Position numbers and translations under genes: made by a program
Shown here: positions 11,147 through 59,187 of the stretch, in pieces
Position numbering within the stretch: the stretch's first letter is position 1
Layout: every line of letters starts with the position of its first letter
IMG/VR virus record: IMGVR_UViG_3300049830_000172
Origin: an uncultured virus (IMG/VR IMGVR_UViG_3300049830_000172)
Lineage: Duplodnaviria; Heunggongvirae; Uroviricota; Caudoviricetes
Reading direction: 5' to 3' (one strand)
Length of the DNA: 60,477 nucleotides
The notes under the pieces: model-generated
What the model was told of the DNA's origin: nothing
Seen by the model: only the letters and a program-made list of their open reading frames with translations
Database searches by the model: none

Positions 11147-11218
11147 ATTAACCATCTAGACACACAAAAAAAGAACGCTAAAGGATTTTCAGCGTTCTTT
11201 CGTCTTTCGGGTCGCTGG

Positions 11219-27140: not shown

Positions 27141-27264
27141 TTTAGTTGTCTCCTATTCGTGTTTTGGTCACGTATAATCTAAGACGTTAAAAATGGCATT
27201 TTTTGGAAAAGAAAATAAAAAAAAGCTCAACGTCAATGTTGAGCGATTTCGTCACGTCGAGTTG

Positions 27265-44530: not shown

Positions 44531-44620
44531 TGGAGCCCCTGACAGGATTCGAACCTGCGATACTCTTTCGAATTCCAATTTACGAAATTGGCGCAATAGA
44601 CCAGGCTATGCGACAGGGGC
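44531..44620 (-). tRNA. tRNA-Thr(CGU) with long variable arm
   Basis: GCCCCTG/CAGGGGC-T-CCA; CCAAT-TTCGTAA-ATTGG; V-arm AATTCGAAAGAGTATC. Confidence 0.9.
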
Positions 44621-45048
44621 ATTGTTTTTAGCGAACCATTCTTCATTAGCTTTCTTTATTCGAGCAGCCTTAGCAATTATATTCTTCTCCATAGTTAAAA
44701 TCATTTTCATTCTTCGTTTAACTTTTGGATTAAGCAGTGCAAGAAGAATTGACATATCAGATTTTAAACTGTTGCACCTTCGACACATAGGAGTGAGATT
44801 GTGAATATCATTCGTGCCGCCTTTGCTGCGAGGTTGAATATGGTCAATTGATTGAGCTAATGCGCCGCAGAATACACAAGGGTCACGGTCGCTGCCACCA
44901 CCTTTTTATGATACTTCTTTTTAATGTGGGCATTAGCACGAGGCATGGAAATCACGACGCACTTGAGGGCTTTTACCCCAATTGTAAAGTGAACATTGCG
45001 TCTTATCCACATTGCGTTCTCTCGCTTTGCCCTTCCGGTAAGCTCCAC
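44606..45048 (-). pseudogene. HNH endonuclease split by a frameshift near 44905
   Basis: Upstream frame ...KKKYHK; the -1 frame continues GGSDRDPCVFCG...IDHIQPRSKGGTNDIHNLTPMCRRCNSLK with no own start. Confidence 0.65.
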
Positions 45049-45126
45049 GAGATAATTCGACAGGGTTTAGAAGTCCGAAGACGGCCCCGTCAAAAGCTAT
45101 ATATCCTCAAGCGATTAACTTGAGGA

Positions 45127-46289
45127 TTAATGTACACCAGCGAGATGTCGTTTTGTAATTTCATCTCGCAGCGCACAAACGATTGGTGGTGTTCCAATGA
45201 CACTCTGTAGGACAATGCACTCACGATGAGCAATATCTGTTTGCCCATTATCTAGACAAACATTGATGAAGTTTATCTTCATCTTGATTGATTTCATCGC
45301 AATATCGTTGTCTTCGGAGTCACTCCATTCGAACATAATGCTATCTTACCACACTTTAGACAGAAACTGTACTTTCCGCCAAAATAGCCCTAGTAATCAT
45401 AGGGCCAACTTCAACTTGAATGAGATTTTCACTCACCATGTAGTTGATGATGTCTTGAGAGACGGGCAATCCCTCTTCGTAGAGTCCGCATAAGCCATCG
45501 TCTTGCAGGCTCCATTGTTTACGTTTGGCAACGCCGTAGTACATGTACAGTACGCCGCCAGATTTCATCTTATTGATGATGTTGTCGATTCTTTCACTTA
45601 CTTTCATAATTCTTTATCCTTCTCAAATAATTATTTGAGGAATTTACGAGGCTTATCAATTTGTCACTTTCCAGCAACATTGCTCGAATTTGTAGATACT
45701 ACATCTATTATACACTATTCTTCATCTGCATCGAGAATCATTGAAGCGTCACCAGATACAAGAAGAATAGTCATTCCATCCTTTTCTCCGACGACAGTGT
45801 AATTAACATCCATAAGAAGAATGTTATCAACAAACTCTGTTGCGATGTGGTCAAGGAACTCTTCTAAATCTCTATTGATAGCGTCAGATAAATCAAGAAG
45901 AATATGACCAGAGACGTAACAATTGTCGTCAGCCTGCTCTTTGATTTCAGCAATGGTGAGTGGGGAAGTTAAGATTTTGATGTCCATGATGATATACTGA
46001 CATCAAAATCACTGTTGAGGAATTAACAGCGTATTGTTGGTTCCATTGCATAGAAGTCTTCATAACCAACCACGAAATACTCAATTGGCTTTACGAACAT
46101 TGTTTTCAAATCTTCGGTTGCATCTTGAAGTGAACCTGATGAACACTTGGTGGTGAGTTTCCAAAGAGCAAAATTCAATCCTTCTTTCTTTTCACGAGTA
46201 TAAATCCCATAGTATGGAGATAACTTCACTGTGTGATTATATATTGAAATCGGCAGTTCTGGTTTGCGCACGACGGTGATTGTAGTCAT
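45127..46289 (-). other. Hypothetical CDSs
   Basis: 45127-45336, 45356-45607, 45715-45987, 46023-46289. Confidence 0.72.
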
Positions 46290-46327
46290 TGTCTATGTAG
46301 TTAACTTTTGCGCAACTTTGAGGAAAA

Positions 46328-46414
46328 TGGAGGATAGTAGAGAGCACGATTCCCATGTCTTTCAACACCCAACGATTAGCAATCGCGGCTGCACACCTGT
46401 ACAGTTCACTATCC
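46328..46414 (-). tRNA. tRNA-Ser(GCU), non-canonical 8/4 fold
   Basis: GGATAGTG/TACTATCC-T-CCA; 6-bp D-stem CTGTAC-AGGT-GTGCAG; loop TTGCTAA; T-arm GGGA-ATCGTGC-TCTC. Confidence 0.75.
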
Positions 46415-46543
46415 ATTAAAAATCTTCCTCATATCAGCAGAAAGATTTGGTACAATACTTATGATGAAATCAAATTCGTTTAGCGAGTCCAGAATTATGG
46501 CATAGCACTAAGTCAAGGTGCTGTGCCTAATCAATGGACAGTT

Positions 46544-46912
46544 ATGAACAAATTCAATCGCGAACATCGACGCGCTCAACGAGAGCGAAAAATTCAACAC
46601 GCCTTCAACATCTATTGGAATACAATCTGCGATAATACTTGCGGACATGGATATAGAGATGATGTTTACGATTTCTGGAAATCACAACACGATTTAGTTC
46701 TTCTTGAAACAGAAGAAGCTCGGCGGCAACATCAAGACAATTATCGACAAGAAGTTTTAATTCTTGCTAAACGAGTCGCTAAACATTTATGCGTTTGTTC
46801 TTGCTGGGCATGTGGTAATAACGGATATAAGAAATACGAGAAGACTCGAAATAACCAAAGAGCAGCCGAACAAGATAAGTGGACTTGGACTCACCTCGAT
46901 TCCTTTGAATAA
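46544..46912 (+). CDS. Hypothetical protein, antisense within the tRNA array
   Basis: MNKFNREHRR...CSCWACGN; fills the gap between two tRNA-Ser genes. Confidence 0.7.
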   Translation: MNKFNREHRRAQRERKIQHAFNIYWNTICDNTCGHGYRDDVYDFWKSQHDLVLLETEEARRQHQDNYRQEVLILAKRVAKHLCVCSCWACGNNGYKKYEKTRNNQRAAEQDKWTWTHLDSFE

Positions 46913-46914
46913 AT

Positions 46915-47003
46915 TGGAGGAGAGGATGGGATTTGAACCCACAGGGCCTTTTACAACCGTGTCATCTTTCCAAGATGGTGCAATACCGTTATGCGACCTC
47001 TCC
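46915..47003 (-). tRNA. tRNA-Ser(GGA)
   Basis: GGAGAGG/CCTCTCC-T-CCA; loop TTGGAAA; long V-arm. Confidence 0.92.
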
Positions 47004-47765
47004 AATTGTGATAGGCTTATACCGTACCTCGATTTCATTGTCTTGCCTATCTCTGAAGACAGTGAATATTTTCTTATTTGGCCAAGGCATTTCAAATAAG
47101 GGGGAGCCATGCTGCTTTGTCAATTCTTTACAAAAAGCAACATACTCTTGTTCATTTCTAAATTCATGACTTGTTTTCTTTCCTTTAGGTAAGTAGATAG
47201 TCATAAATTCATTATACAATTCTGAGGAGAATACGGGAGTCGAACCCGAAGCCTTTCAGCCCGCGCTTGTTTTCGAAACAAGATGAGACACCAATCTCAC
47301 TATTCTCCAATTTTATAATTGCAATTGAATTACATTACAATTATGTATAGCCTAATTATAGGGGGTCAAATATCGGAATAAATTTCAGTTTTTTGAAAAT
47401 GATTAACAGGACGTTTCTAAGCCCTTTTCATTGAAGAGTAGTCTCAAACTCCGATGACGCACTAAATTCTTTTTAGGAGTGGTATATGTGGCGTAAACTA
47501 GGACGTAGCGACCAGAGACACCATACATATAATGAGTGTCTTTGTAGAAAACTTCTGGGGTGCCTGGTTCTTGTTCATAGCCAAGGTAATCAAACACGTC
47601 GTCGGCTGAAACGATGATATACTTTGTTCCTCGATGACGGTAGTCATATCGAGTAATTGGAGTGCCCACAATTAGCGGTTCGAGTTCTGTGAGTAACGAC
47701 GTGCGGATTTCTGCGTTCCGCACATCTAAGTCTTTGTATTTCTCGAAGATTTGTGCTGGCGACAT
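46989..47765 (-). other. Two hypothetical CDSs within the tRNA array
   Basis: 46989-47204 and 47403-47765. Confidence 0.65.
47225..47308 (-). tRNA. tRNA-Ser(CGA), non-canonical 8/4 fold
   Basis: GGAGAATA/TATTCTCC; CTTGT-TTCGAAA-ACAAG; T-arm CGGG-TTCGACT-CCCG; CCA not encoded. Confidence 0.8.
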
Positions 47766-47804
47766 AATGCCTTATCGAACCCCTCAGCATCAATTGAGGA
47801 AAAT

Positions 47805-47895
47805 TGGTACCCGCGAAGGGAATCGAACCCTAATAAGCCTCTAATCTGGAGGTAGTGAGTTATAAGCCCACCTATGTTCCATACATCACACGGGC
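47805..47895 (-). tRNA. tRNA-Ile(UAU) with long variable arm
   Basis: GCCCGTG/CGCGGGT-A-CCA; GTGGG-CTTATAA-CTCAC; V-arm CCTC-CAGATTA-GAGG. Confidence 0.8.
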
Positions 47896-47919
47896 GCGTT
47901 TAGCACCCGTTTCAGGATA

Positions 47920-48438
47920 CTACTTGTTTTGCTCTAGTCTGAGCAATTCTCGAACTCTATCGAGTTCATCGGTGGTGTGCATAACACCGCCAGCGTTTAA
48001 GTGCAAATACCATTCAAGCACTTCAGCTCTTGTTTGAAGATTATTGACGTGGACAATGAAGTCTGTCTCAGTGAGACGAAGATTATCGGTGAACTCTGAG
48101 AAAACGCTGCCGAAGACTTCAACTTCATCACGGAGGAAAGCTCTTGCTGCTTCGATTCGCTGTTTGCCATCGACAATCTCGAACTTACCTTTAAAGTCTG
48201 TCATCCACCCAGGGTGGTTAAAGTAGATAGCTCTACTGGATTTTCCACCCTTAAGAATGAACTCTACATAAGCTTGCTGCTTCTCTTTTGTCCAAACATG
48301 TCCGCGTTGAAAATCCGGGTCAAGGTCGCACTCAGGAATTCCTTCGAGGTGTCGCTCCAAATGGCTCCACGGTACATTAACAACATAGTTGCCGCCATGA
48401 ACAAATCGAGGGATGTCTTTGAACTTCGTGATTTTCAT
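47920..48438 (-). CDS. DUF262 (ParB/GmrS-like) domain protein
   Basis: LDPDFQRGHVW and IVDGKQR motifs. Confidence 0.85.
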   Translation of the reverse strand: MKITKFKDIPRFVHGGNYVVNVPWSHLERHLEGIPECDLDPDFQRGHVWTKEKQQAYVEFILKGGKSSRAIYFNHPGWMTDFKGKFEIVDGKQRIEAARAFLRDEVEVFGSVFSEFTDNLRLTETDFIVHVNNLQTRAEVLEWYLHLNAGGVMHTTDELDRVRELLRLEQNK

Positions 48439-48488
48439 ATCTCTATAGTATACCTGAGCAAATTGTTGAGGAAACTATGGGCCAGCAT

Positions 48489-48509
48489 GGAATCGAACCC
48501 TAATAAGCC
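48489..48509. repeat. 21-bp direct repeat of the tRNA-Ile 3' segment (47819-47839)
   Basis: ggaatcgaaccctaataagcc in both places. Confidence 0.85.
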
Positions 48510-48518
48510 GCTAAAATT

Positions 48519-48614
48519 TGGTACCCGTACTCAGACTCGAACTGAGAACCGCTCCCTAATCTGGGGAATATCTATGTTATAAGCATAGCGCTCTGCCAAT
48601 TGAGCTATACGGGC
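48519..48614 (-). tRNA. tRNA-Ile(UAU) with long variable arm
   Basis: GCCCGTA/TACGGGT-A-CCA; CTATG-CTTATAA-CATAG; V-arm TCCC-CAGATTA-GGGA. Confidence 0.88.
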
Positions 48615-48657
48615 ATTTATTAAAGGACTGTTAGGATTCGATGTATAAGATAATAGC

Positions 48658-49332
48658 ATGACAGAAAAACAAATTCAAATCATTAAAGACCTACAGACTT
48701 TTTCAGTAACTTATAACCGAACACCAACGAAATCAGATTTTTCAACCAAGACGACCATAGTGCGTCATTTTGGGACTTGGAATAATGCTTTACTTGCTGC
48801 GGGTCTATCGCCAAACATTACATTTGGTGAGACGCAAATATTTAATTGTAACAAATGTGGTATTACTATTCGAAGACAAGCCTCACAAATTAAAGGAGAA
48901 GTTTATTGTTCCCGTGCTTGTGCAGTTTCAATAAATAATCAAAAACGAACAACAATCAAATATAGAAGTCGTAAACCAAATAGTTTTTGTTCTTCTTGTA
49001 ATATCCAAATTAAAAGAGACCGCAAATGGTGTCCCGATTGTTCTCCTTTACGGAATGAAAGTATGCCAATATCGGATTTGTTTGATGATAAACGAGCTGC
49101 AAGTAAATATGCTAAAATTCGCCAGCGTGCTCGTTCAAAATATTTAGCAAATAGACCATATGAATGCATTATTTGCAAATACACATTGCATATTGAAGTT
49201 GCGCATATTCATTCAATAGCAAGCTTTCCCAAAGAAACGTTAGTCTCTGTTGTAAATGATTTATCCAATTTAGCTGGTTTATGTAAACGTTGCCATTGGG
49301 AATATGACAACGGATATATTCAACTTCAATAA
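48658..49332 (+). mobile_element. HNH homing endonuclease between tRNA genes
   Basis: N-terminal RTPT...RHFGTWNNALLAAGL repeat; CIIC...EVAHI...NDLSNLAGLCKRCH; stop abuts the tRNA CCA end. Confidence 0.85.
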
Positions 49333-49409
49333 TGGTGGTGCGTCTGGGTTTCGAACCCAGGCTCTCAACCTTATGAGGGTTTTGCTTTAGGCCTCTAAGC
49401 TAACGCACC
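49333..49409 (-). tRNA. tRNA with CAU anticodon (Ile2 or elongator Met)
   Basis: GGTGCGT/ACGCACC-A-CCA; loop CTCATAA; lacks initiator features. Confidence 0.9.
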
Positions 49410-49455
49410 ATGAGAGCCGAACCCAGGCCTGCCAAACTCCCTGGAGGTATGCCCA

Positions 49456-50401
49456 TTAAATATCTGTCACATTCTCGAAAGTTTGAATCGGCATATCATC
49501 GCTCATTCCATAATAGTGGAAATTGAACTGCTTTGATTCAGGATGCCATTCGAGAAAGCCGATGCATTGTCCGCCAACAAAGATTGAAGCGTCTGGATAA
49601 GCAGGGTCGCCACATGACCTAACTACGATATCTCCGCCTGGTGTACCAACTATCAGTTCGGGTGACTTTGAACGAGGGTTACGAATTGAAATCTTTCTAT
49701 CTGTTGCCATAAGACTATACTATTTCTGGTTCATCAGTTGAGGAATTAAACATATCCTCAACCCCAAAATGCTCTGACATCATTTTAATGACTTTTGGCG
49801 GAATGCTTTGTGAATCATGTACTTCAGCGGGCATAATGATTTTCAATAAGCCAGTGGAGTCAACGAGGATGTCACGGTGACTTCTTGTACCAGCTAAACT
49901 GCGTTTAGATGCTTCTTCTGTGCGACCAAATCCGAGCATAAGGGTTCGACCATCTTCAATCAAGAGATTACTCCAATATTCTTTTGCATCTGTTGGAGTT
50001 TCTTCTTCAACAAAGAATATATGCCAGAGTTGTTCAAGTATTTCAAACATGATGTTTAGTATACATCAAGCGTGAATATGAATGACTGGTTTCACCAAAC
50101 CTTCAATAGAGCCAAAGTCATCTTGTGTATATCGTTCAACTTTACCAAACTTATCAAAGAAAATCGTTCCACCTTGAACTTCCCAAATCCAAGCATTATC
50201 AAATAACGACCGCTTCATTGATTTTGGCGCAGTGCCCAAGAACTTCATTACTTCGTCAGTTGAACTTCCGATACTCCAACCAGTTGGCTCTGCTTGTCGA
50301 GTGCCAATCAATCGTTTTGGTTCTGATTGTAAATCAGGAGTGTCTTGATGAGGTTTGTCGGAGAGAAAATTCATCCATTGTATTAAAGATGCGAATACCA
50401 T
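49456..50401 (-). other. Three hypothetical CDSs
   Basis: 49456-49710, 49715-50050, 50066-50401. Confidence 0.7.
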
Positions 50402-50457
50402 GGTTTAATACTCGAATCTCAATTTACTTTGAGGAATTGCTGGCGAAGCATTTAAAC

Positions 50458-50531
50458 TGGAGCCCTATAAGAGACTTGAACTCTTCTCTGTAGTTTACAA
50501 AACTACTGCATCGCCTCAATGCTTAAAGGGC
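50458..50531 (-). tRNA. tRNA-Thr(UGU)
   Basis: GCCCT...AGGGC-T-CCA; GTAGT-TTTGTAA-ACTAC. Confidence 0.88.
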
Positions 50532-50688
50532 TTAAATATAAATGTAAATAGGGGAAGATTCAACAGCTATAGGGGCAATATGATGTCTTTCCATCAGTCA
50601 ATGTCTTTACACATCCCGTTTCCCAGATGCATCAGCCAGCACTTTTTAAGGTTACTGGACTAGTCGAAGAGACATTCCTTCCACAATG

Positions 50689-50886
50689 TTATTTGTCGCC
50701 GTTCAATTCTTTTTGCTGTTCTTTCGCGCCACCAGCAGTTCCAAGAACTGCTCGGTTTTCAGTAGCTTGAACTTTCACATGACTATCACGAGTCATGAAG
50801 TAACCACCGCCACCGCAAATTAAAATTATTACGATAATAGCGCCGATGATGAAGTAGTCATATTTTTTGATTTCGTTTGCTGACAT
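50689..50886 (-). CDS. Small single-TM protein
   Basis: FIIGAIIVIILICGGGGYF. Confidence 0.7.
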   Translation of the reverse strand: MSANEIKKYDYFIIGAIIVIILICGGGGYFMTRDSHVKVQATENRAVLGTAGGAKEQQKELNGDK

Positions 50887-50919
50887 AGTTCTATTATACC
50901 ATTTGATAAAGACTTGAGG

Positions 50920-50954
50920 AAAAAGCGCAAGCAGTTTTCTTCCTACTTGCGCTT
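50920..50954 (-). terminator. Putative intrinsic terminator
   Basis: AAGCGCAAGTAG...CTGCTTGCGCTTTTT. Confidence 0.65.
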
Positions 50955-50974
50955 ATATTTATGAGAGTTGAAGC

Positions 50975-51544
50975 TTACGCTGTAACAGTCTTACCAGCTT
51001 GCTTGTTGCCAGTGCCGAGGAACTCACCCCAGCCGTTCCAACCGCTGTTCAAGAACATGGTCTCGGGCTTTCGAGGAACTCCTGCTGGAAGCATATCCTT
51101 TCGCTTGAGGTCATAGAACTCTTCTCGATTCTTCAAGCCACATTCCTGGATTGCATTCTTTGCAATCTGATAAGGAGTGAGAATTTCAGTCTTTGGAGCT
51201 GATTTTGCTTTTGGAGCCTTGGGAATCTTTGGAGCATCCTTGACTGCATCAGTTTTTGGAGCCTTATCAACCTTAGGAGCCACTGCCTTCGGATTTCGCG
51301 CCTTTCGAGTCAACTTGCAACCAATAAAGAGATTGATGTTGAACTTCTCAGGAGGTGTCATCGCCTTCAATTCGTCTGCATAGACAGTCCACGGATTTGA
51401 CGGGATGTCTGCTGGGCGAACTCGGCCTTGAGCGTCTTTACCTTTTGCATATGCAATCCAATCCTGCATGGATGTGAGTGCGAGAGTGATGACGAATGCT
51501 TGTGCTTGCGCATAGTTGAGGAAGTTTTTTCGTTTGCCTGCCAT
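50975..51544 (-). CDS. Protein with two integrase-repeat-like units and a Lys/Ala/Pro linker
   Basis: YAQAQAFV..L.LTS..DW..RPADIPSNP and PAGVPRKPE...GWNGWGEFLG. Confidence 0.6.
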   Translation of the reverse strand: MAGKRKNFLNYAQAQAFVITLALTSMQDWIAYAKGKDAQGRVRPADIPSNPWTVYADELKAMTPPEKFNINLFIGCKLTRKARNPKAVAPKVDKAPKTDAVKDAPKIPKAPKAKSAPKTEILTPYQIAKNAIQECGLKNREEFYDLKRKDMLPAGVPRKPETMFLNSGWNGWGEFLGTGNKQAGKTVTA

Positions 51545-51670
51545 AATTTTCTATCTTTGTACTGAACATATTTGAGGAAATTCTACGTTAGTAGCTTTTC
51601 TTCGCTCAGTCATTGACTTCATACATGGTGGAATTTGCATCTTGAGGAATTTCTTAAATTCTATACTTAA

Positions 51671-51742
51671 AGCGAGGTACGAGATTCGAACTCGTCTCTT
51701 TAGTTTGGAAAACTAAGGCCCAATCCCCTAGACCAACCTCGC
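51671..51742 (-). tRNA. tRNA-Gly(UCC)
   Basis: GCGAGGT/ACCTCGC-T; TTAGT-TTTCCAA-ACTAA; CCA not encoded. Confidence 0.9.
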
Positions 51743-51800
51743 TTTAAATATCACTACACTAATCCCGCTCTGAATTATTTGTAAATAGGGAATATCAACG

Positions 51801-52148
51801 TTACATGAACCATCGTTGATATAGCCAACCGAAGAAAAGCATAAGAGCTGGGACAAGATATACTTTTCCAATGATTGTGAAGAGTATAGTAGTCCATGGC
51901 TTGCTTTCTGAGTTAGTCTCCCATTTCATGAGATACATTGTACAGTATTGAATAATCAACATCACGCCGAGCATGTTTCCGATTGTAACTACTGGTGCGC
52001 CCTGGATTGGCAGCAAGAACCAGTTGTATAGGTGAAGCAATACATATCCTGCCCACCAAGCTGAGAAAGGGATGGTAAGGAAGTATACAAGAAACACCAG
52101 ACATCCGCCGAGTGCATTATTTTTCTGTTCATCAGTAAGTTCTGACAT
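51801..52148 (-). CDS. Membrane protein, paralog of 52433-52768
   Basis: YNWFLLPIQGAP..IGNMLGV shared motif. Confidence 0.8.
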   Translation of the reverse strand: MSELTDEQKNNALGGCLVFLVYFLTIPFSAWWAGYVLLHLYNWFLLPIQGAPVVTIGNMLGVMLIIQYCTMYLMKWETNSESKPWTTILFTIIGKVYLVPALMLFFGWLYQRWFM

Positions 52149-52169
52149 ATAATCAGTATACCATGAAAT

Positions 52170-52245
52170 TGGAGCACCAGACGGGAATCGAACCCGTTAC
52201 CTATTCATTACCAATGAATTGTTCAACCGAATGAACTTCAGGTGC
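52170..52245 (-). tRNA. tRNA-Thr(GGU)
   Basis: GCACC.G/C.GGTGC-T-CCA; ATTCA-TTGGTAA-TGAAT. Confidence 0.9.
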
Positions 52246-52288
52246 TTACATTTGGGATTATTCCATCCCAATAGGCGAAGGTAGCATG

Positions 52289-52370
52289 TGGAGCGGGTGA
52301 GGAGAATCGAACTCCATACTACATGTTTGGAAAACACGCGATAAAACCATCTACCATAAGTTTCACCCGC
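52289..52370 (-). tRNA. tRNA-Gly(UCC), 8/4 fold with expanded D region
   Basis: GCGGGTGA/TCACCCGC-T-CCA; CGTGT-TTTCCAA-ACATG; T-arm GGAG-TTCGATT-CTCC. Confidence 0.75.
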
Positions 52371-52432
52371 AAATTGAAATAGGCTAGTGGATTCAGTCCA
52401 CTAGCCATGCCGTTGTCGATAATATTGAGTCT

Positions 52433-52768
52433 TTATCGCATGAAAATCATTTGGAAAATCCAACCGAAGAACAAACTTCCAAGTGGAACGATTATGATTT
52501 CACAGATTCCAAACAGGAAAATAGCCGCCCAGTTGTCTTTATATTTCTCCGAAGCGTCTTTTCGTTTCAATCCTGCCGTGAGAAGTGCGCAAATCAGTGC
52601 TACGCCAATCATGTTCCCAAGAACGAGATGCGGTGCGCCTTGCACTGGAAGTAAGAAGCGATTGTAGTTGACGAGAAGTGCGTAGGCATTAAGCCATACT
52701 GCTGGAAGCATTAGGATAACAAATATCCAACCTGCTAATGATGCTGCTTTGTCGTTTGTCGTAGACAT
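52433..52768 (-). CDS. Membrane protein, paralog of 51801-52148
   Basis: YNRFLLPVQGAP..LGNMIGV. Confidence 0.8.
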   Translation of the reverse strand: MSTTNDKAASLAGWIFVILMLPAVWLNAYALLVNYNRFLLPVQGAPHLVLGNMIGVALICALLTAGLKRKDASEKYKDNWAAIFLFGICEIIIVPLGSLFFGWIFQMIFMR

Positions 52769-52805
52769 GATTATATATTCATGACTTTTCTTATCTTGAG
52801 GAAAT

Positions 52806-52881
52806 TGGTCAGCACGACGGGATTTGAACCCGCAAACTCCGCATAGACAGTGCGGTGAGATAACCGTTACTCTACGTGCCG
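52806..52881 (-). tRNA. tRNA-Asp(GUC) with atypical C1-G72/A73 and U37
   Basis: CGGCACG/CGTGCTG-A-CCA; CCGCA-CTGTCTA-TGCGG. Confidence 0.82.
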
Positions 52882-52884
52882 ATG

Positions 52885-53139
52885 TTAGCCATGAAGAGGA
52901 AAATATTGTGACAATATCTTTCGTGCTTCTTTAGGTAGTTTCTTTGAAGCACCCATCATTGTTCTGGGTGACTTGGTGCCAAGTACATATGCATCGACTG
53001 GACACATATATCCATATGTAGCGATTTCATTTTCAGCAGTACAAACAAGAAATGTCATCATAGTGGCTTGTTTAATTTCTCGTCCGACTTCGTGCCAAAA
53101 CTCAGGTGTCTGAGCTTTTATTGCTTTTGCAACGTTCAT
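52885..53139 (-). CDS. Hypothetical protein
   Basis: 84-aa ORF after the promoter motif. Confidence 0.7.
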   Translation of the reverse strand: MNVAKAIKAQTPEFWHEVGREIKQATMMTFLVCTAENEIATYGYMCPVDAYVLGTKSPRTMMGASKKLPKEARKILSQYFPLHG

Positions 53140-53176
53140 ATGTATATAGAAGTTTTATTTACACACATGAGGAAAA

Positions 53177-53248
53177 TGGAGCCACCTGAATCGCTTTCAC
53201 ATTCCCTTTCGCCTTCAACGGCGACGTGCGATATTACACTAAGGTAGC
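53177..53248 (-). ncRNA. tRNA-like RNA, 6-nt loop GTTGAA
   Basis: GCTACCT/AGGTGGC-T-CCA; TCGCC-GTTGAA-GGCGA; non-TTC T-loop. Confidence 0.65.
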
Positions 53249-53263
53249 ATTTGTCTGTAAAAA

Positions 53264-53347
53264 TGGAGCCAGCTAGGGGAATCGAACCCCTGTTCTCTTT
53301 CGAGTCCGCATTACAAGTGCGGCGCAATTCCATTATGCGAAACTGGC
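53264..53347 (-). tRNA. tRNA-Thr(UGU) with long variable arm
   Basis: GCCAGTT/AGCTGGC-T-CCA; CCGCA-CTTGTAA-TGCGG; V-arm CTC-GAAA-GAG. Confidence 0.9.
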
Positions 53348-53364
53348 ATAAGAAGAAGAATCAG

Positions 53365-53449
53365 AGGAGAGCATGGGATTCGAACCCACAGAGCCTTTCA
53401 CAACCCAGTCGTTTTCAAAACGGTTTACCCCACCAATGGCGGACTCTCC
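53365..53449 (-). tRNA. tRNA-Ser(UGA), weak D/anticodon stems
   Basis: GGAGAGT/GCTCTCC-T; loop TTTGAAA; long V-arm; canonical T-arm. Confidence 0.72.
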
Positions 53450-53488
53450 ATTCATTCTTCTTTCTTCATATTAAAATTTGGCGACCTG

Positions 53489-53734
53489 TTATTCTAAATT
53501 TTCTTTAGAATATTTGATGATTTCTGTAGCAATGGACACTACTAAGTTAATAAAATCATCATAACTCAAAGTAATAACCTCAGTCTCGGGATAATGTGTT
53601 TTGGTATTAGCAAGTAAACCAATTCTAAACTCATTTTCAGAAGCCATAAGTCGTTCAATATTAGCTAATGTTCCAATTTAATATTGATTTTCCCCAGTGA
53701 TATATTTGATTGTTGATGTGATTAAACTATCCAT
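53489..53734 (-). pseudogene. AT-rich ORF interrupted by an in-frame TAA at codon 19
   Basis: MDSLITSTIKYITGENQY*IGTLANIERLMASENEF... in one frame; could instead be a short gene from the internal ATG. Confidence 0.4.
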
Positions 53735-53743
53735 AGAACATAT

Positions 53744-54181
53744 TTATACAACACTTAACAAGCCATCTTCTACTTCTCGATGGCAATTTGCACAAAGCAA
53801 TGTGCATTTGTCTAATTCTTCTTGAACCTCTTCCCAAGGTCGATAAGTTCCATCATGACTAATACCGAATTTCTTGGTAGATGGGTCGTTGTGATGAAAT
53901 TCTAAAGCACGAGCACAACGATTGTAATTGCATATTTGGCATTTACCGCCCTTATACTCAAGTGCTTTTTCCATAACACCTTTACGACGTTTTTTATGAT
54001 ATTCTCTCCATCGCTTTCTGTCACTTTCTTTTTGACTATCAACAGTTTCAAATTTAGATTTTCTTTCTTGTCTTGGAACACATTCAAAACAGTTCTTACG
54101 TGTTCTTCTAACTGTAAAAGTCGATTCGTCTGATTTGATTCGATAAGGAATCATTTTGCCGCATGTTATACAAGTGCTCAT
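53744..54181 (-). mobile_element. HNH endonuclease within the tRNA array
   Basis: KGGKCQIC...LEFHH...ELDKCTLLCANCH. Confidence 0.82.
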
Positions 54182-54243
54182 ATAAATATGTTATACATCT
54201 TCTCGCCGTAGACCTTTGAATAACACAACGAGATGAATAGATT

Positions 54244-54319
54244 TGGCGCGAATGACGGGTACCGACCCCGCTATCTCTTGCGTGACAGGCAAGAGGATTA
54301 ACCTTCTTCCTCCACTCGC
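54244..54319 (-). tRNA. tRNA-Asp(GUC)
   Basis: GCGAGTG/CATTCGC-G-CCA; CTTGC-CTGTCAC-GCAAG; atypical T-loop GTCGGTA. Confidence 0.85.
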
Positions 54320-54340
54320 GACAAATCATCTTGAAAAACT

Positions 54341-54417
54341 TGGCGGGCATGAAGGGATTCGAACCCTCATTCTTCTCGCAGACAACGAGTTGCTGTAAAC
54401 CGTTTAGCTACATGCCC
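54341..54417 (-). tRNA. tRNA-Asp(GUC) with U37/G38
   Basis: GGGCATG/CATGCCC-G-CCA; CTCG-TTGTCTG-CGAG. Confidence 0.88.
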
Positions 54418-54418
54418 A

Positions 54419-54487
54419 TGGAGCCGTCTCAAGGATTCTCACCTTATCTTCCCAGTCTCACTGGTTGTGCTCTTACACTAAGACGAC
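54419..54487 (-). ncRNA. tRNA-like RNA lacking a 7-nt anticodon loop
   Basis: GTCGTCT/AGACGGC-T-CCA; CCAGT-GAG-ACTGG; T-arm AAGG-TGAGAAT-CCTT. Confidence 0.65.
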
Positions 54488-54493
54488 AAATTT

Positions 54494-54575
54494 TGGAGCG
54501 GATGACGAGACTCGAACTCGCAATACTTTCGTACCTCGTTGGCAACGAGGCTCCATACCATTAGGATACATCCGC
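54494..54575 (-). tRNA. tRNA-Gly(GCC) with long variable arm
   Basis: GCGGATG/CATCCGC-T-CCA; CCTCG-TTGCCAA-CGAGG; V-arm TAC-GAAA-GTA. Confidence 0.92.
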
Positions 54576-54635
54576 AAATAATCGTTAACATGGGAGAGAA
54601 GGTGCTAAAGCTTCTCTCCCGTAACGCGCATACAA

Positions 54636-54669
54636 TATTAAGTTTTCAAAGTGCAATGCCAAAAGTGGC
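54636..54669 (-). promoter_or_regulatory. rrn-like boxB-boxA antitermination signal
   Basis: GCCA-CTTT-TGGC hairpin followed by TGCACTTTGAAAACTTAATA. Confidence 0.6.
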
Positions 54670-54682
54670 GAGGGATAAATTC

Positions 54683-54715
54683 AAAAAGGCTCGGGGAGTT
54701 TCCTCCGCCGAGCCC
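54683..54715 (-). terminator. Attenuator terminator (3:4)
   Basis: GGCTCGG-c-GGAG-GAAA-CTCC-CCGAGCC-TTTTT. Confidence 0.88.
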
Positions 54716-54740
54716 GTAAATCTTGTCTTCTTATGACAGG

Positions 54741-54860
54741 TTAGGGTGTGAGCGGAGTTCCTCCGGTGGTATCACTATCCGAGCCTGTCCCTGAAACGAC
54801 AACAAGCGCGGGAGTGAATCCCGTGGATGTTGATATTGTTGAGTTGTTCCAGTTTAACAT
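54741..54860 (-). CDS. 39-aa Thr/Ser/Gly/Asp-rich attenuator leader peptide
   Basis: MLNWNNSTISTSTGFTPALVVVSGTGSDSDTTGGTPLTP*; lies between the sigma70 promoter and the terminator. Confidence 0.8.
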   Translation of the reverse strand: MLNWNNSTISTSTGFTPALVVVSGTGSDSDTTGGTPLTP

Positions 54861-54877
54861 TGTATGTCTCTTCCTTT

Positions 54878-54912
54878 ATTATAGGATATATGCCTAGTGT
54901 TTGTCAACACTA
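54878..54912 (-). promoter_or_regulatory. Sigma70 promoter with a palindromic operator over the -35
   Basis: TTGACA-N18-TATAAT; TAGTGTT-GACA-AACACTA inverted repeat at 54895-54912. Confidence 0.8.
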
Positions 54913-56255
54913 TTTTGAGGATTTTTCGAATTTCTTATTATCCGAGTCCATGTGCAGTAGTATTTCTTCCATGAATGCCTTGCGATATTCCGCGTTTGCT
55001 AATAAGTTCTTAGCGATTCTTTTCTCTGTGTAAGTTTGTGGGTCGTGGTTCAGAGTGCCAGTCATGGTTTTAAACGCATGATTGAACGTCCATTCATTCA
55101 ACGCAAGATGGTCACATAAATGATTTCGAGTGCAATCAACTTCTTTCTTTAGAATGTTTGACCAGACTGTAAAAACTTCTTCTTCTAACTCATTTATATA
55201 AGAGCCCCTCACCGTGCCATAGTTATGTGAACCGCTGAACTGAACTTTATCGCCAACTTGCCACGCGGTTCGCCATTTAAGTCTTGGAACCAAAATAGCC
55301 CAGCCATTATCGCAAACCACTAAACCTTTCTTGGCTAACGAACGCCCACAACTGTGTGGAATTGTGTTCTCGTATAGATTATTTTTGTTAGACAACTTCG
55401 ATGCTTGCATAGGTGAGTCTTTCAATATCAAAAGCGCTTTATTTTCTGCTTGTGTTAAAAACATTAGTTTGGCTCCGCGTGAAGAATTAAAGTCTTTTCA
55501 CTGACGAGGGTGATAAATACAGCTTCTTGCTTATAGTGAATGAGAGTCATTGCGCCAATCTCTCGAATCTGTTCCTCGCTGCAAGCAATTCGCACGGGAA
55601 TCATGAGTTCTTTGTGAGTCTTCTCATTCACTGGGGACATCCAAACACCCTTGACAAGCTTCATGATTGTCATTCCACCAGAGATAGCCATGACTTTGGC
55701 ATCCCATTCTTGGTGATAAGGGACTTGGACATTCTTGCGTCCCATCTTATATGGAACCAAGATTTCCCAGAGCTGTTTGATTTCTGTCATTTAACCCGTA
55801 TTAAATCCTCGGTGGTGTATTGACTGCCGCGAACATGTGCAAAGAAATATTTTTCAGCAGCGTCCATTGCGCCTTCAAGAGATTCGGTTTGAAGAACGCC
55901 TTTGTTTTGTTCCCAATGACCGTTGACTAGCACATTCGATGTAAAATGGTTCTTTTCTCCGTCTGAACTCACAAGTACAATCATCTTGTTGCGGTCATCT
56001 ATCTTGCACACCCAACATTTTGCGAATGTGCCTTCTTCGTTGTCATACTGCCATCGAGCTGTGTTTTGATACTTGACTTTTCTTAGCTTCATAATTTTCC
56101 TAGTATGGTAACTTCATCTTACGCTTCTCGAATTCTTCGATGATTTGTTCAGCTTCCCAGTAAGCTGGAGTATTTCCTGAAGCAAAACTTCCACCAGCTC
56201 CACCGCTGATAAGCCGTTCTCTCATATATTCGATTTGGTTTTCAGTGTATTCCAT
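54910..56255 (-). other. Hypothetical CDSs
   Basis: 54910-55464, 55464-55790, 55787-56092, ~56100-56255 (51 aa). Confidence 0.72.
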
Positions 56256-58578: not shown

Positions 58579-59187
58579 TTATTCTGACTTGAAATCAGCT
58601 TGTTGTGCAACGGCAGCAAGTGCCGCACGAGCACGGAACAAACGAACTTTGACAGTATTAATGTTCGTTTTCGTTTGTAGAGCGATGTCATCGTAACTCA
58701 TAGGAATTGAAATTGTTTCATCCAGAGGATTAGAATTTCCATAAGTATTCATAGAGAGAGCAGATGAGTACGTCGGAGATATGTTGGATATCATCCCTCT
58801 GACTTGTCGAGAATTCATCGCCTGCACTTCCTTCAATAAAAATTCAGATTCAATATCAACCTTAGGGTCTGCGAATTCTACTTCGCTGCCGCCATATAAC
58901 CACTCAAGCTCATCGAATGAAGTTGTCTTCGGACGGCGGGCATCAAAGCGCTTCTTATCGAGGAATAAATTCTGCATGATTCTTTTTGCCCACGCACAGA
59001 ATTTATTCTCATCTTGACACTTATCGAGATTCATATAAATTTTAATTGATGTCTCTTGGAATAAATCATCAGCACTATCTTGATTTCGTGTCAGTCGATA
59101 TGCATGCACGCGCAGATTTTTGGTATGAATCCGCATCAAGCGTTCATATGAAGAATCATTAAGCTCGAATTTCTCTGTTGATGTCAT
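58579..59187 (-). CDS. ECF (RpoE-like) sigma factor
   Basis: AYRLTRNQDSADDLFQET, FCAWAKRIMQNLFLD (region 2); MSYDDIA...INTVKVRLFRAR (region 4). Confidence 0.92.
   Translation of the reverse strand: MTSTEKFELNDSSYERLMRIHTKNLRVHAYRLTRNQDSADDLFQETSIKIYMNLDKCQDENKFCAWAKRIMQNLFLDKKRFDARRPKTTSFDELEWLYGGSEVEFADPKVDIESEFLLKEVQAMNSRQVRGMISNISPTYSSALSMNTYGNSNPLDETISIPMSYDDIALQTKTNINTVKVRLFRARAALAAVAQQADFKSE

What the first reader, a model, noticed from the sequence alone, without database searches (positions are those of the whole stretch)
54494..54912. Leader-peptide attenuator that appears to sense tRNA depletion and control a phage tRNA array
Seen (minus strand): a TTGACA/TATAAT promoter, then a 39-codon ORF (54860-54741; below the ORF-track cutoff), then a GC-rich terminator with U5 (54715-54683), then the tRNA array. 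The peptide has 9 Thr, 6 Ser, 5 Gly, 2 Asp and 1 Ile(ATA). Codons 7-14 (STISTSTG) and 23-35 (SGTGSDSDTTGGT) use only these residues. Every array anticodon has a cognate leader codon: Thr ACA/ACG/ACC-ACT for UGU/CGU/GGU; Ser TCA/TCC/TCG/AGT for UGA/GGA/CGA/GCU; Gly GGA-GGG/GGC for UCC/GCC; Asp GAT for GUC; ATA for UAU; ATA or ATG for CAU. Mutually exclusive pairings are visible: CGGAG:CTCCG closed by GACAGG:CCTGTC (1:2), CTCCGCT (54757-54751) with GGCGGAG in the terminator 5' arm (2:3), and the terminator (3:4). Known: this is trp/thr/his attenuator geometry, and some anti-phage systems and toxins destroy or block specific tRNAs. Inference: ribosome stalling when these host tRNAs are lost switches on replacement tRNAs. 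I know of no described attenuator whose output is tRNAs, but cannot check the literature. Caveats: Asn, Val, Leu, Pro, Trp, Phe and Ala codons in the leader have no array tRNA; stalls at codons 7-14 are far from the switch; hairpins at 52382-52406 and 50920-50954 plus internal promoters may limit the controlled transcript to the first ~8 RNA genes.
Basis: partly seen in the sequence, partly recalled or inferred. Interest (0 to 1): 0.96.

Follow-up and report, generated by a model that had tools for sequence, protein, structure and literature searches.

The report
Leader-peptide switch before phage tRNA genes
A short translated leader and a two-state RNA switch sit in front of this phage's tRNA genes and probably raise their transcription when the matching tRNAs run short; look-alike switches, unrelated in sequence, stand before tRNA clusters in other phages, including the phiCbK group of Caulobacter.

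Summary
On the minus strand a perfect sigma-70 consensus promoter (54907-54878), a 39-codon ORF (54860-54741) and a strong intrinsic terminator (54715-54683) precede a 15-tRNA array that serves only Gly, Asp, Ser, Thr, Ile and Met. One detail fails: no tRNA-Ser(GCU) was found.

Three results argue against chance. The ORF's 3' half and the terminator form two near-isoenergetic, mutually exclusive folds (-44.4 vs -43.7 kcal/mol; 0 of 300 shuffles match the ORF-terminator pairing). Codons read by the array make up 23 of 39, only in the ORF's frame (4 of 20000 shuffles reach this). All 11 anticodon classes have a leader codon.

The same architecture, with unrelated sequences, occurs before three tRNA clusters of a 416-kb IMG/VR phage. 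It also occurs in 9 of 9 sampled phiCbK-like phages, where the four pairing regions co-vary and the leader residues are permuted but keep the cluster's amino acids.

Best reading (0.7): a ribosome-mediated attenuator that reads decoding speed at array-cognate codons. It probably gates only the first five tRNAs, because phage-type promoters interrupt the array. Sensing of defence-inflicted tRNA loss is untested. Ten literature searches found no attenuator with tRNAs as its output.

The parts
54878..54907 (-). Promoter P1: perfect sigma-70 consensus -35 (54907-54902) and -10 (54883-54878) with an 18-nt spacer. The expected start is near 54871.
   Evidence: One search gives 12 of 12 matches. One search finds 2 perfect matches in the window against 0.06 expected. 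In run X5's contig only one spacer base differs (54888), while the upstream gene's end is scrambled.
54868..54877 (-). Purine-rich Shine-Dalgarno-like stretch directly after the -10 hexamer.
   Evidence: It would lie mostly upstream of a P1 start site, but inside transcripts that read in from the upstream operon. This is inference.
54741..54860 (-). Leader ORF: 39 codons plus stop. Codons 7-14 and 23-35 are entirely Ser, Thr, Gly, Asp or Ile.
   Evidence: Triplet periodicity gives chi-square 13.6, reached by 158 of 5000 shuffles. A natural variant has an in-frame 3-nt deletion at 54748 and no substitution across the ORF.
54791..54852 (-). Hairpin A, within codons 3-23 (-19.3 kcal/mol). Role unknown; possibly a pause or spacer element.
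54761..54789 (-). Region 1: the 5' strand of hairpin B (codons 24-33). It also carries an 8-nt copy of the terminator's 5' arm (54786-54779) that can pair with region 4.
   Evidence: Hairpin B folds at -17.9 kcal/mol.
54735..54757 (-). Region 2: the 3' strand of hairpin B. It covers codons 35-39, the stop codon and 6 nt beyond. It pairs alternatively with region 3.
   Evidence: The 2:3 fold is -18.7 kcal/mol. Region 3 is kept free only when a ribosome A site is at about codon 31 or later.
54703..54727 (-). Region 3: the terminator's 5' arm plus the bases upstream of it. It pairs with region 2 (antiterminator) or with region 4.
   Evidence: It is 100% conserved in run X9's contig, while the flanks carry substitutions.
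54683..54698 (-). Region 4: the terminator's 3' arm and the U5 tract.
   Evidence: terminator -23.3 kcal/mol.
54634..54662 (-). Candidate second promoter P2 (9 of 12 matches). It could drive the tRNAs independently of the leader.
   Evidence: such matches are common (43 found against 32.6 expected). Its hexamers are unchanged in the variants, while 54656 and 54665 vary.
54592..54620 (-). 10-bp hairpin 16 nt before tRNA-Gly (-16.8 kcal/mol). It may be a processing or stabilising element.
   Evidence: All variant bases fall in the loop (54602, 54608-54610) and the stem is unchanged.
54494..54575 (-). tRNA-Gly(GCC), 82 nt with an extra structured variable arm. It is the first gene behind the switch.
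54244..54417 (-). Two tRNA-Asp(GUC) genes (54417-54341 and 54319-54244).
53744..54181 (-). HNH endonuclease ORF inside the first cluster.
   Evidence: phrog_2255, E = 5.6e-26.
53264..53449 (-). tRNA-Ser(UGA) and tRNA-Thr(UGU). These are the last tRNAs before the first internal phage-type promoter-like motif, at 53173.

Best explanation
This is a ribosome-mediated (leader-peptide) transcription attenuator whose output is tRNA.

Proposed mechanism:
- Host RNA polymerase starts at P1. Transcripts reading in from the upstream operon may also enter the leader.
- The 39-codon leader is translated while the polymerase moves on.
- If the ribosome decodes quickly and reaches the last codons or the stop, it covers region 2. 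Region 3 then pairs with region 4, and transcription ends at 54683.
- If decoding lags at the Gly, Thr, Ser and Asp codons of about codons 21-31, the ribosome sits on region 1. Region 2 is then free and pairs with region 3, the terminator cannot form, and the polymerase runs on into tRNA-Gly, Asp, Asp, Ser and Thr.
- Those are the tRNAs that read these same codons, so the loop is a negative feedback on the supply of the phage's own tRNA species.

Shown: the anatomy, the two competing folds, the frame-specific codon bias, nucleotide-level conservation, and recurrence in other phages.

Inferred: translation of the ORF, the kinetic order of folding, and the physiological trigger.
For: 1. Two-state switch.
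- The terminator state is -44.4 kcal/mol and the antiterminator state -43.7 kcal/mol over 54800-54680.
- The ORF-terminator duplex is -42.9 kcal/mol, against -27.2 +/- 3.7 in shuffles (0 of 300 reach it).
- The energy gap between the two states is 1.2 kcal/mol, against 11.1 +/- 3.5 (2 of 300).
- Among 9 minus-strand terminators of the window, only this one has such a duplex (z = -3.4).
- The energies rank 1:2 (-17.9), 2:3 (-18.7), 3:4 (-23.3).

2. Geometry.
- In a transcript ending before region 4, region 3 is paired upstream with P = 0.99 unless a ribosome A site lies at about codon 31 to the stop; then P is 0.24-0.6.

3. Codons.
- 23 of 39 are cognate, against a background of 26.4% (binomial 1.9e-5; rank 1 of 847).
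- By frame the counts are 23, 11 and 6, and 4 of 20000 shuffles reach 23.
- 11 of 11 anticodon classes are represented.
- In codons 21-31, 6 of 11 are read by the five first-cluster tRNAs (P = 0.003; the window of codons was chosen after the fact).
- Periodicity has p = 0.03.

3b. Natural variants (single low-depth contigs).
- The X5 contig keeps promoter and ORF, with one spacer change and one in-frame 3-nt deletion, while the upstream gene's end is scrambled.
- The X9 contig keeps the terminator unchanged while the flanks vary.
- The deletion variant still has both folds and an intact ORF.

4. Independent analogues.
- Contig G001 has three leaders with antiterminators. Duplex tests give 1 of 200, 0 of 300 and 0 of 300. 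Cognate codons are 26 of 46 (P = 0.006), 10 of 21 (P = 2e-6; 6 of 6 anticodons) and 9 of 25 (P = 0.006).
- All 9 sampled phiCbK-like phages keep a 31-32-codon leader. Codons 5-18 are cognate in 105 of 126 cases, 77 of 80 tRNA genes have a leader codon, and regions 1-4 co-vary.
Against: - There are no expression data and no experiment.
- A start at P1 leaves a 5' leader of only about 11 nt, and most of the Shine-Dalgarno-like stretch would lie upstream of it.
- With a ribosome masked at codons 23-31, the full-length equilibrium fold still has the terminator at P of 0.98 or more. Read-through therefore rests on a kinetic argument that I could not compute.
- Without a ribosome, the truncated transcript also prefers 2:3, so the default state is uncertain.
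- 16 of 39 codons have no array tRNA, including AGT and three Val codons in or beside the critical stretch.
- The first Ser/Thr-rich block (codons 7-14) is too far from the switch to act in the classical way.
- Candidate promoter P2 lies behind the terminator.
- A second promoter, small ORF and terminator cassette at 27533-27215 shows no switch. Such cassettes therefore exist here as plain small genes.
- No relatives of this leader beyond near-identical variants were found.
- Most tRNA clusters surveyed lack such a leader: 64 of 70 cluster starts and 12 of 12 scattered loci.
Confidence: 0.7

Rival explanations
1. The RNA switch is real but is flipped by something other than the ribosome. Candidates are a phage or host RNA-binding antiterminator protein, a modified polymerase (as at lambda pR'-tR'), or a bound tRNA or small molecule. 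The ORF would be incidental.
For: - The two-state fold itself does not need translation.
- The distance from the expected start to the end of the terminator is about 189 nt. By recall, this is close to lambda's short pR' transcript.
- The 5' leader from P1 is short.
- Equilibrium folds with a masked ribosome do not abolish the terminator.
Against: - Codon enrichment is frame-specific (23, 11 and 6; 4 of 20000 shuffles).
- All 11 anticodon classes are represented.
- There is triplet periodicity.
- The natural deletion is in frame.
- The stop codon lies inside region 2.
- In the phiCbK family the leader's residues are permuted while their composition is kept. This is hard to explain without translation.
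- No Rfam family, T-box included, matches 54570-54930 (the best hit scores 14.8 bits against a cut-off of 41).
Confidence: 0.12
2. This is an independent early small-gene cassette: promoter, 39-aa protein, terminator. The terminator merely insulates it from a tRNA unit driven by P2, and the codon match is coincidence.
For: - The window's only other perfect sigma-70 promoter (27533-27505) drives a 68-aa ORF with a good Shine-Dalgarno sequence and its own terminator.
- Candidate P2 lies at 54662-54634.
- A 10-bp hairpin near the expected 5' end of a P2 transcript could stabilise it.
Against: - The 27533 cassette shows no antiterminator signal (duplex z = +0.7), whereas this one does (z = -3.4).
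- The variant contig has no synonymous change in 39 codons although the neighbouring spacer is about 10% diverged. This points to constraint beyond the peptide.
- No homologue of the peptide was found among proteins of 22-72 aa.
- The same ORF, antiterminator, terminator and tRNA order recurs in unrelated phages.
Confidence: 0.1
3. The roughly 190-nt terminated transcript is itself the product: a structured small RNA that acts in trans.
For: - The region is highly structured (z = -4.0 for 54670-54872).
- It is conserved at nucleotide level.
- Attenuator-derived small RNAs are known, for example rnTrpL (PMC6614838; search listing and abstract only).
Against: - This does not explain the frame-specific match to the array's anticodons.
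- It does not explain the near-isoenergetic fold that destroys the terminator.
- No target was sought.
- It is compatible with, and not exclusive of, the attenuator reading.
Confidence: 0.05

Closest known systems
Leader-peptide attenuators of amino-acid biosynthesis operons in enterobacteria (trp, his, thr, leu, ilv, pheA); recalled textbook knowledge
   Same: Both have a promoter-proximal short ORF, regulatory codons inside region 1, four regions with 1:2, 2:3 and 3:4 pairings, a stop codon placed so that a terminating ribosome covers region 2, and an intrinsic terminator before the regulated genes. Multivalent leaders (thr, ilv) likewise mix several amino acids.
   Different: - The output here is tRNA genes, not enzymes.
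- The element lies in a phage.
- The sensed set is four to six amino acids and mirrors the isoacceptors of the downstream cluster.
- There is no sequence relationship: the Rfam leader families do not match.
pheST attenuator of E. coli (a leader peptide controlling an aminoacyl-tRNA synthetase); recalled
   Same: A leader-peptide attenuator whose output belongs to the translation apparatus for the same amino acid that it senses.
   Different: The output there is a protein (the synthetase) for a single amino acid in a chromosomal operon. Here the output is the tRNAs themselves.
T-box riboswitches; recalled
   Same: They also use a terminator/antiterminator choice that reads the state of a specific tRNA and feeds back on the supply of that tRNA's function.
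   Different: A T-box binds uncharged tRNA directly through a specifier codon and a conserved bulge, with no translation. No T-box match was found here, and the ORF's frame-specific signals point to the ribosome.
Lambda pR'-tR' unit with Q antitermination; recalled
   Same: Both have a strong constitutive phage promoter, a leader of about 190 nt, and a strong terminator that must be overcome to express downstream genes.
   Different: Lambda uses a protein that modifies the polymerase. It has no alternative RNA fold and no codon logic. No Q-like gene was sought or seen here.
Upstream-ORF attenuation that responds to toxin-inflicted loss of one tRNA (M. abscessus VapC5 cleaving tRNA-Ser(CGA); PMC10287673, search listing and abstract only)
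   Same: The loss of a specific tRNA is read out through ribosome behaviour and switches on a response.
   Different: That is a host stress response whose outputs are resistance pathways, not replacement tRNAs. I did not read its mechanism in detail.

Membership tests
Ribosome-mediated (leader-peptide) transcription attenuator | A short ORF with a start codon and a usable ribosome-binding site close to the promoter | tested here: inconclusive
   An ATG ORF of 39 codons starts 17 nt after the -10 hexamer. A purine-rich stretch is present, but a P1 start would leave a leader of only about 11 nt. Read-in transcripts would carry all of it.
Ribosome-mediated (leader-peptide) transcription attenuator | An intrinsic terminator between the leader ORF and the regulated genes | tested here: met
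   A 12-pair hairpin (-23.3 kcal/mol) plus U5 lies at 54715-54683, 107 nt before tRNA-Gly.
Ribosome-mediated (leader-peptide) transcription antiterminator logic | An antiterminator (2:3) that excludes the terminator and is more than chance | tested here: met
   One search shows the fold. In one search the duplex is matched by 0 of 300 shuffles and the energy gap by 2 of 300. It is the only one of 9 terminators in the window with this property.
Ribosome-mediated (leader-peptide) transcription attenuator | An anti-antiterminator (1:2) lying within the translated region, and a stop codon placed so that a terminating ribosome covers region 2 | tested here: met
   Hairpin B spans 54789-54735 (-17.9 kcal/mol) and the stop codon lies at 54743-54741, inside its 3' strand.
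Ribosome-mediated (leader-peptide) transcription attenuator | Regulatory codons related to the product of the regulated genes, in the ORF's frame | tested here: met
   (23 of 39 codons; 11 of 11 classes; frames 23, 11 and 6).
Ribosome-mediated (leader-peptide) transcription attenuator | Conservation of the ORF and co-variation of the pairings among relatives | tested here: inconclusive
   For this leader only near-identical variants exist. They show an in-frame deletion, no substitutions, and no compensatory pair. Co-variation is met in the sequence-unrelated phiCbK-family analogue: 8 of 9 were scored and one was mis-scored by the script.
Ribosome-mediated (leader-peptide) transcription attenuator | Translation of the leader, and a change in read-through when cognate charged tRNA is limited | not testable with these tools
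   This needs a bench test or Ribo-seq and Term-seq.
Rfam leader families (Thr_leader, His_leader, Leu_leader, Trp_leader and others) | A match to the family covariance model | tested here: not met
   Searches found no leader family at E up to 10. The element is not a homologue of the enterobacterial leaders.
T-box riboswitch | A match to the T-box model (specifier loop and conserved antiterminator bulge) | tested here: not met
   One search found no T-box match in 54570-54930 at E up to 10.
Lambda-type Q antitermination unit | A Q-binding element or promoter-proximal pause signal, and a Q gene | not tested
   Only the promoter, leader and terminator layout resembles it. No Q homologue was looked for.

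The most novel reading that the evidence does not exclude
Large phages of several unrelated lineages place leader-peptide attenuators before their tRNA clusters. Each leader is written in the codons of the cluster it controls. Each cluster is therefore a self-regulating module that detects a shortfall of exactly those tRNAs and switches on replacements. The shortfall could come from host shut-off, from codon-usage mismatch, or from tRNA-cleaving immune systems.
Probability: 0.3. Interest if true: 0.95.

Novelty: new variant of a known kind. Interest (0 to 1): 0.85.

Why it matters
Phage tRNAs are now discussed as codon-usage helpers and as replacements for host tRNAs destroyed by immune nucleases (PMC10264068, PMC11464382; listings and abstracts only). 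How their expression is controlled is hardly known.

An attenuator whose sensor is written in the codons of the tRNAs it releases would be a direct feedback between decoding and tRNA supply. In ten full-text searches I found no described attenuator with tRNAs as its output.

The same design occurs in phiCbK and its relatives, which grow on the model bacterium Caulobacter crescentus, so the idea is directly testable at the bench. It also gives annotators a rule for finding small functional ORFs before tRNA clusters. In GenBank these are either left unannotated or called hypothetical proteins.

Tried and rejected
Relatives of this leader:
- GenBank phages gave nothing by megablast, blastn or tblastn. 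The only hits were 31-nt tRNA matches.
- IMG/VR gave nothing by protein or by three exact DNA patterns.
- JGI metagenome contigs gave nothing by protein alignment or by a tRNA-Gly pattern.
- GTDB genomes gave nothing by pattern.
- The upstream 184-aa protein has one homologue, P0001 (89% identity, on a 1719-bp contig), whose DNA I could not fetch.
- The leader peptide has no homologue among proteins of 22-72 aa.

Other blanks:
- No whole genome is held for the window.
- No RNA holder is listed among the sequencing runs, so nothing can be said on expression.
- Runs with small shares that I did not lay (X6-X8, X11-X13) were not used.

Leads dropped:
- Loci L001-L008, reached through a 41-49% identical homologue of ORF 47920-48438, are not tRNA arrays. 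They served only as handles to whole contigs.
- I considered the Thr/Ile-rich enterobacterial thr leader as a possible source. No Rfam match supports it.
- I considered a degenerate tRNA pseudogene inside the ORF. The tRNA model gives no hit there.
- I considered the long-range 13-bp pairing of 54866-54853 with 54640-54628 as a processing stalk. It is only modestly above chance (26 and 11 of 1000 shuffles) and has no co-variation, so it is left as a side note.

Survey negatives:
- 12 of 12 scattered tRNA loci in contigs G001, G002, G004 and G005 have no leader.
- 64 of 70 cluster starts show no ORF-plus-terminator with p below 0.01. This includes every start examined in Xanthomonas phage XacN1, Klebsiella phage 05F01, Stenotrophomonas phage CM1 and LR756508.1, and 2 of the 3 CcrColossus arrays.
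- One further hit, a 64-aa hydrophobic ORF before tRNA-Leu(UAA), looks like a membrane protein. I do not count it.
Full report
What is there. The window is part of an uncultured large phage.
- GenBank phages hold nothing close to it.
- Its proteins hit phage families, including an ECF-type sigma factor at 58579-59187.
- Near-identical DNA stands in runs labelled freshwater and sediment metagenomes, two of which may be its source.
- On the minus strand, directly after the stop of a 184-aa ORF, lie in order:
  - a perfect sigma-70 consensus promoter (54907-54878; 12 of 12 matches; one of only two in 60 kb, against 0.06 expected);
  - a purine-rich stretch;
  - a 39-codon ORF (54860-54741);
  - after 25 nt, a 12-pair terminator hairpin with five U (54715-54683; -23.3 kcal/mol);
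  - 107 nt further on, the first tRNA.
- The array holds 15 tRNA genes between 54575 and 44531. ARAGORN finds 13 by default and 15 at a relaxed threshold, and Rfam also sees the two extra ones.
- The tRNAs serve only six amino acids, with complete isoacceptor sets for Thr, for Ser (UCN) and for Gly.

Is the codon match more than chance?
- Codons readable by the array make up 23 of 39, against 26.4% in the phage's long ORFs (binomial 1.9e-5).
- This is the highest share among 847 six-frame ORFs of 25 aa or more, though the next two reach 0.556 and 0.552.
- The signal is frame-specific: 23, 11 and 6 of 38 codons in the three frames.
- It survives control for composition: 4 of 20000 dinucleotide shuffles of the ORF reach 23.
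- All 11 anticodon classes have a codon in the leader. This has P = 0.0015 for random ORFs and holds for 2 of 340 real six-frame ORFs of 30-50 codons.
- The ORF shows triplet periodicity typical of coding windows (chi-square 13.6, reached by 158 of 5000 shuffles).
- Several of the cognate codons are rare in the phage's own genes. The array is therefore not simply matched to phage codon usage.

Is there a switch?
- The region is far more structured than shuffles (z = -4.0 and -6.9).
- Over 54800-54680 two exclusive folds are nearly equal in energy.
  - The first is hairpin B plus the terminator (-44.4 kcal/mol).
- The second is an extended helix in which the ORF's 3' half pairs with both arms of the terminator (-43.7 kcal/mol).
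- With the terminator held fixed and the ORF shuffled:
  - the ORF-terminator duplex (-42.9 kcal/mol) is matched by 0 of 300 shuffles;
  - the small energy gap is matched by 2 of 300.
- Of nine strong minus-strand terminators in the window, only this one shows such a duplex. This includes the terminator of the other sigma-70 cassette at 27533-27215.
- The separate energies (1:2 -17.9, 2:3 -18.7, 3:4 -23.3) have the ranking that I recall for the trp attenuator. I did not check that recollection.

How the ribosome could flip it.
- In a transcript that ends before region 4, region 3 is paired with upstream sequence at P = 0.99. The exception is a ribosome footprint whose A site lies at about codon 31 or later, where P is 0.24-0.6 (three footprint sizes tried).
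- So only a ribosome that has reached the end of the ORF keeps region 3 free for the terminator.
- A ribosome held at about codons 21-31 covers region 1 and leaves region 2 free.
- Six of those eleven codons are read by the five tRNAs that follow the terminator before any other promoter-like site, and all four of their anticodons are represented (P = 0.003; the window of codons was chosen after the fact).
- Weak points:
  - Full-length equilibrium folds keep the terminator even with the ribosome at codons 23-31, so read-through rests on folding order, as in classical models.
  - The untranslated default state is unclear.
  - The first Ser/Thr block (codons 7-14) lies too far upstream to act directly.
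  - A P1 start leaves a 5' leader of only about 11 nt.
- The last point weighs less if, as the window-wide motif suggests, this phage routinely uses very short leaders (see side notes), or if upstream transcripts read in.

Natural variation (single contigs at depth 2.5-4.6, so each difference could be an error).
- A contig of run X5 covers 54733-55038. Promoter and ORF are unchanged except for one spacer base and a 3-nt in-frame deletion near the ORF's end, while the adjoining end of the upstream gene is full of substitutions and gaps.
- A contig of run X9 covers 54497-54754. The terminator and tRNA-Gly are unchanged, and substitutions cluster in the spacer 54656-54682 and in the loop of the 54620-54592 hairpin.
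- The deletion variant keeps an open ORF and both folds.
- This shows constraint at nucleotide level on ORF and terminator. It gives no compensatory pair.

Scope of control.
- A motif occurs 108 times on the gene strand and 13 times on the other. It is usually followed about 30 nt later by an ATG at a fixed distance with no Shine-Dalgarno sequence.
- It looks like the phage's own promoter type, perhaps for its ECF-type sigma factor.
- At least 14 copies lie inside the array, the first at 53173, and several directly follow a tRNA's 3' end.
- The leader can therefore gate at most tRNA-Gly, Asp, Asp, an HNH gene, tRNA-Ser and tRNA-Thr.
- A 9-of-12 sigma-70-like site (54662-54634) behind the terminator could bypass even that.

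Independent analogues. I inspected whole contigs reached through an unrelated gene and five GenBank records. An automated screen looked for a terminator-like hairpin of -10 kcal/mol or stronger with a U-run, and for an ORF of 10-80 codons ending within -15 to 70 nt of it. It examined 70 cluster starts and gave 6 with codon-match p below 0.01. One of the six is this window and one is a doubtful membrane protein. The other four all show the antiterminator signature.
- The IMG/VR contig behind G001 (416 kb, about 31% G+C, lacking the window's motif) has three.
  - A 21-codon leader rich in Gln, Pro and Arg stands before a Pro/Gln/Pro/Gln/Arg/Arg cluster. It has 10 of 21 cognate codons against 8.3% background (P = 2e-6), 6 of 6 anticodons, frames 10, 1 and 1, and a duplex matched by 0 of 300 shuffles.
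  - A 46-codon leader stands before a 12-tRNA cluster. It has 26 of 46 cognate codons (P = 0.006), 11 of 12 classes, an energy gap matched by 0 of 200 shuffles and a duplex matched by 1 of 200.
  - A 26-codon leader stands before a Met/Thr/Ala/Ile/Val cluster. It has 9 of 25 cognate codons (P = 0.006) and a duplex matched by 0 of 300 shuffles.
- Caulobacter phage CcrColossus has a 31-codon leader. Codons 5-17 are 13 of 13 cognate to the Phe/Val/Ile/Gln/Asn/Arg cluster behind a terminator that GenBank already annotates.
- That CcrColossus region has blastn matches in 51 phage records. I fetched nine representatives, from Caulobacter and Brevundimonas phages.
  - All nine keep the ORF 26-31 nt before a terminator of -27 to -34 kcal/mol and 51-243 nt before the cluster.
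  - Codons 5-18 are cognate in 105 of 126 cases.
  - Frame 0 beats both other frames in 9 of 9.
  - 77 of 80 tRNA genes have a leader codon.
  - The regulatory residues are permuted between phages while their composition stays.
  - Three different versions of the terminator arms are each matched by changes in regions 1 and 2 inside the ORF. In one search, 8 of 9 were scored; the ninth was mis-scored because the script took the wrong hairpin, and its terminator is -31.0 kcal/mol.
  - This is the pattern expected of a true leader-peptide attenuator.
- Negatives:
  - 12 of 12 scattered tRNA loci have no leader.
  - 64 of 70 cluster starts gave no hit. Among them are all those of XacN1, Klebsiella 05F01, Stenotrophomonas CM1 and LR756508.1, and two of the three CcrColossus arrays.
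  - The design is recurrent, not universal.

Comparison with what is known.
- The mechanism is that of the classical amino-acid operon attenuators.
- The nearest in logic are the pheST leader and T-boxes. All three comparisons rest on recall.
- It is not a homologue of any Rfam leader family or T-box.
- What differs is the output (tRNAs), the carrier (phages) and the sensor (a mixed codon set mirroring the cluster).
- Ten full-text searches found no such case.
- The phiCbK genome paper contains neither 'leader' nor 'attenuat', and states that Rfam found no RNA elements other than tRNAs (PMC3556154; passages read; supplements not opened).
- The library covers only open-access papers and bioRxiv, so an older description in a subscription journal cannot be excluded.

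Verdict.
- The attenuator reading is well supported in silico (0.7 for this locus).
- Control is probably limited to the first five tRNAs.
- A link to anti-phage tRNA nucleases remains a hypothesis.
- It is a new variant of a known kind, and it is directly testable in Caulobacter phages.

Noticed in passing
Whole window, minus strand. Examples: 543-509, 1042-1006, 3548-3512, 12605-12570, 52802-52768: About 100 copies of an intergenic motif: a conserved 7-10-nt box, about 18 nt of spacer, a second A/T-rich box starting with GTA, and then directly the ATG of the next gene, with no Shine-Dalgarno sequence. The core 6-mer occurs 108 times on the gene strand and 13 times on the other. It looks like a phage-specific promoter giving leaderless or very short-leader mRNAs, perhaps read by the phage's ECF-type sigma factor (58579-59187; Pfam Sigma70_r2 and r4_2)..
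   Followed up: partly
44531-54575, minus strand: The 15 tRNAs serve only Gly, Asp, Ser, Thr, Ile and Met, with full isoacceptor sets for Thr, Ser (UCN) and Gly. Several of their codons are rare in the phage's own genes: TCG 7.6, ACG 9.2, ATA 6.3, TCC 5.8 and GGG 5.2 per 1000. That does not fit plain codon-usage compensation..
   Followed up: partly
54494-54575, 53264-53347, 48519-48614, 47805-47895, 44531-44620: tRNA-Gly(GCC), one tRNA-Thr(UGU), both tRNA-Ile(UAU) and tRNA-Thr(CGU) are 82-96 nt long. They carry an extra structured variable arm, which these tRNA types normally lack. A search listing mentions a defence system that cuts the variable loop of a tRNA (PMC13096335; listing only)..
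   Followed up: no
27215-27533, minus strand: The window's second perfect sigma-70 promoter is followed by a good Shine-Dalgarno sequence, a 68-aa ORF of no known family and its own terminator, and then a 299-aa gene. No antiterminator signal was seen..
   Followed up: partly
54853-54866 with 54628-54640, minus strand: A 13-bp long-range pairing would close the whole leader and sequester its start codon in read-through transcripts (-14.8 kcal/mol; matched by 26 and 11 of 1000 shuffles). Both strands are unchanged in the variants, so there is no co-variation test..
   Followed up: partly
About 11172-11350, minus strand: Another terminator whose upstream 133 nt offers a near-isoenergetic alternative fold. 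The energy gap is 0.7 kcal/mol against 8.9 +/- 3.0 in 60 shuffles, but the duplex alone is not unusual. It may be a second switch..
   Followed up: no
53744-54181 (-), 48658-49332 (+), 35654-36361 (-): HNH endonuclease genes lie in and near the tRNA array, two of them inside it..
   Followed up: no
4379-5293 (+), 38769-40073 (-): One protein matches an anti-restriction family (phrog_7245, E = 7e-75). A PARP-like protein is 30-36% identical to proteins of Xanthomonas, Stenotrophomonas and Klebsiella jumbo phages..
   Followed up: no
L044 1263-1397 (Brevundimonas phage Bambus, ON529853.1): In this record the homologous leader ORF is annotated as a 44-aa hypothetical protein. In CcrColossus, Karma and phiCbK only the terminator is annotated, and in the other records neither is..
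   Followed up: yes
L045 and L048 (phages Gurke and CcrSC): In these two phages a tRNA-Tyr stands between the terminator and the cluster, only 51 nt after the hairpin. All nine leaders keep a Tyr codon at position 4-5, and Gurke has a second one..
   Followed up: no
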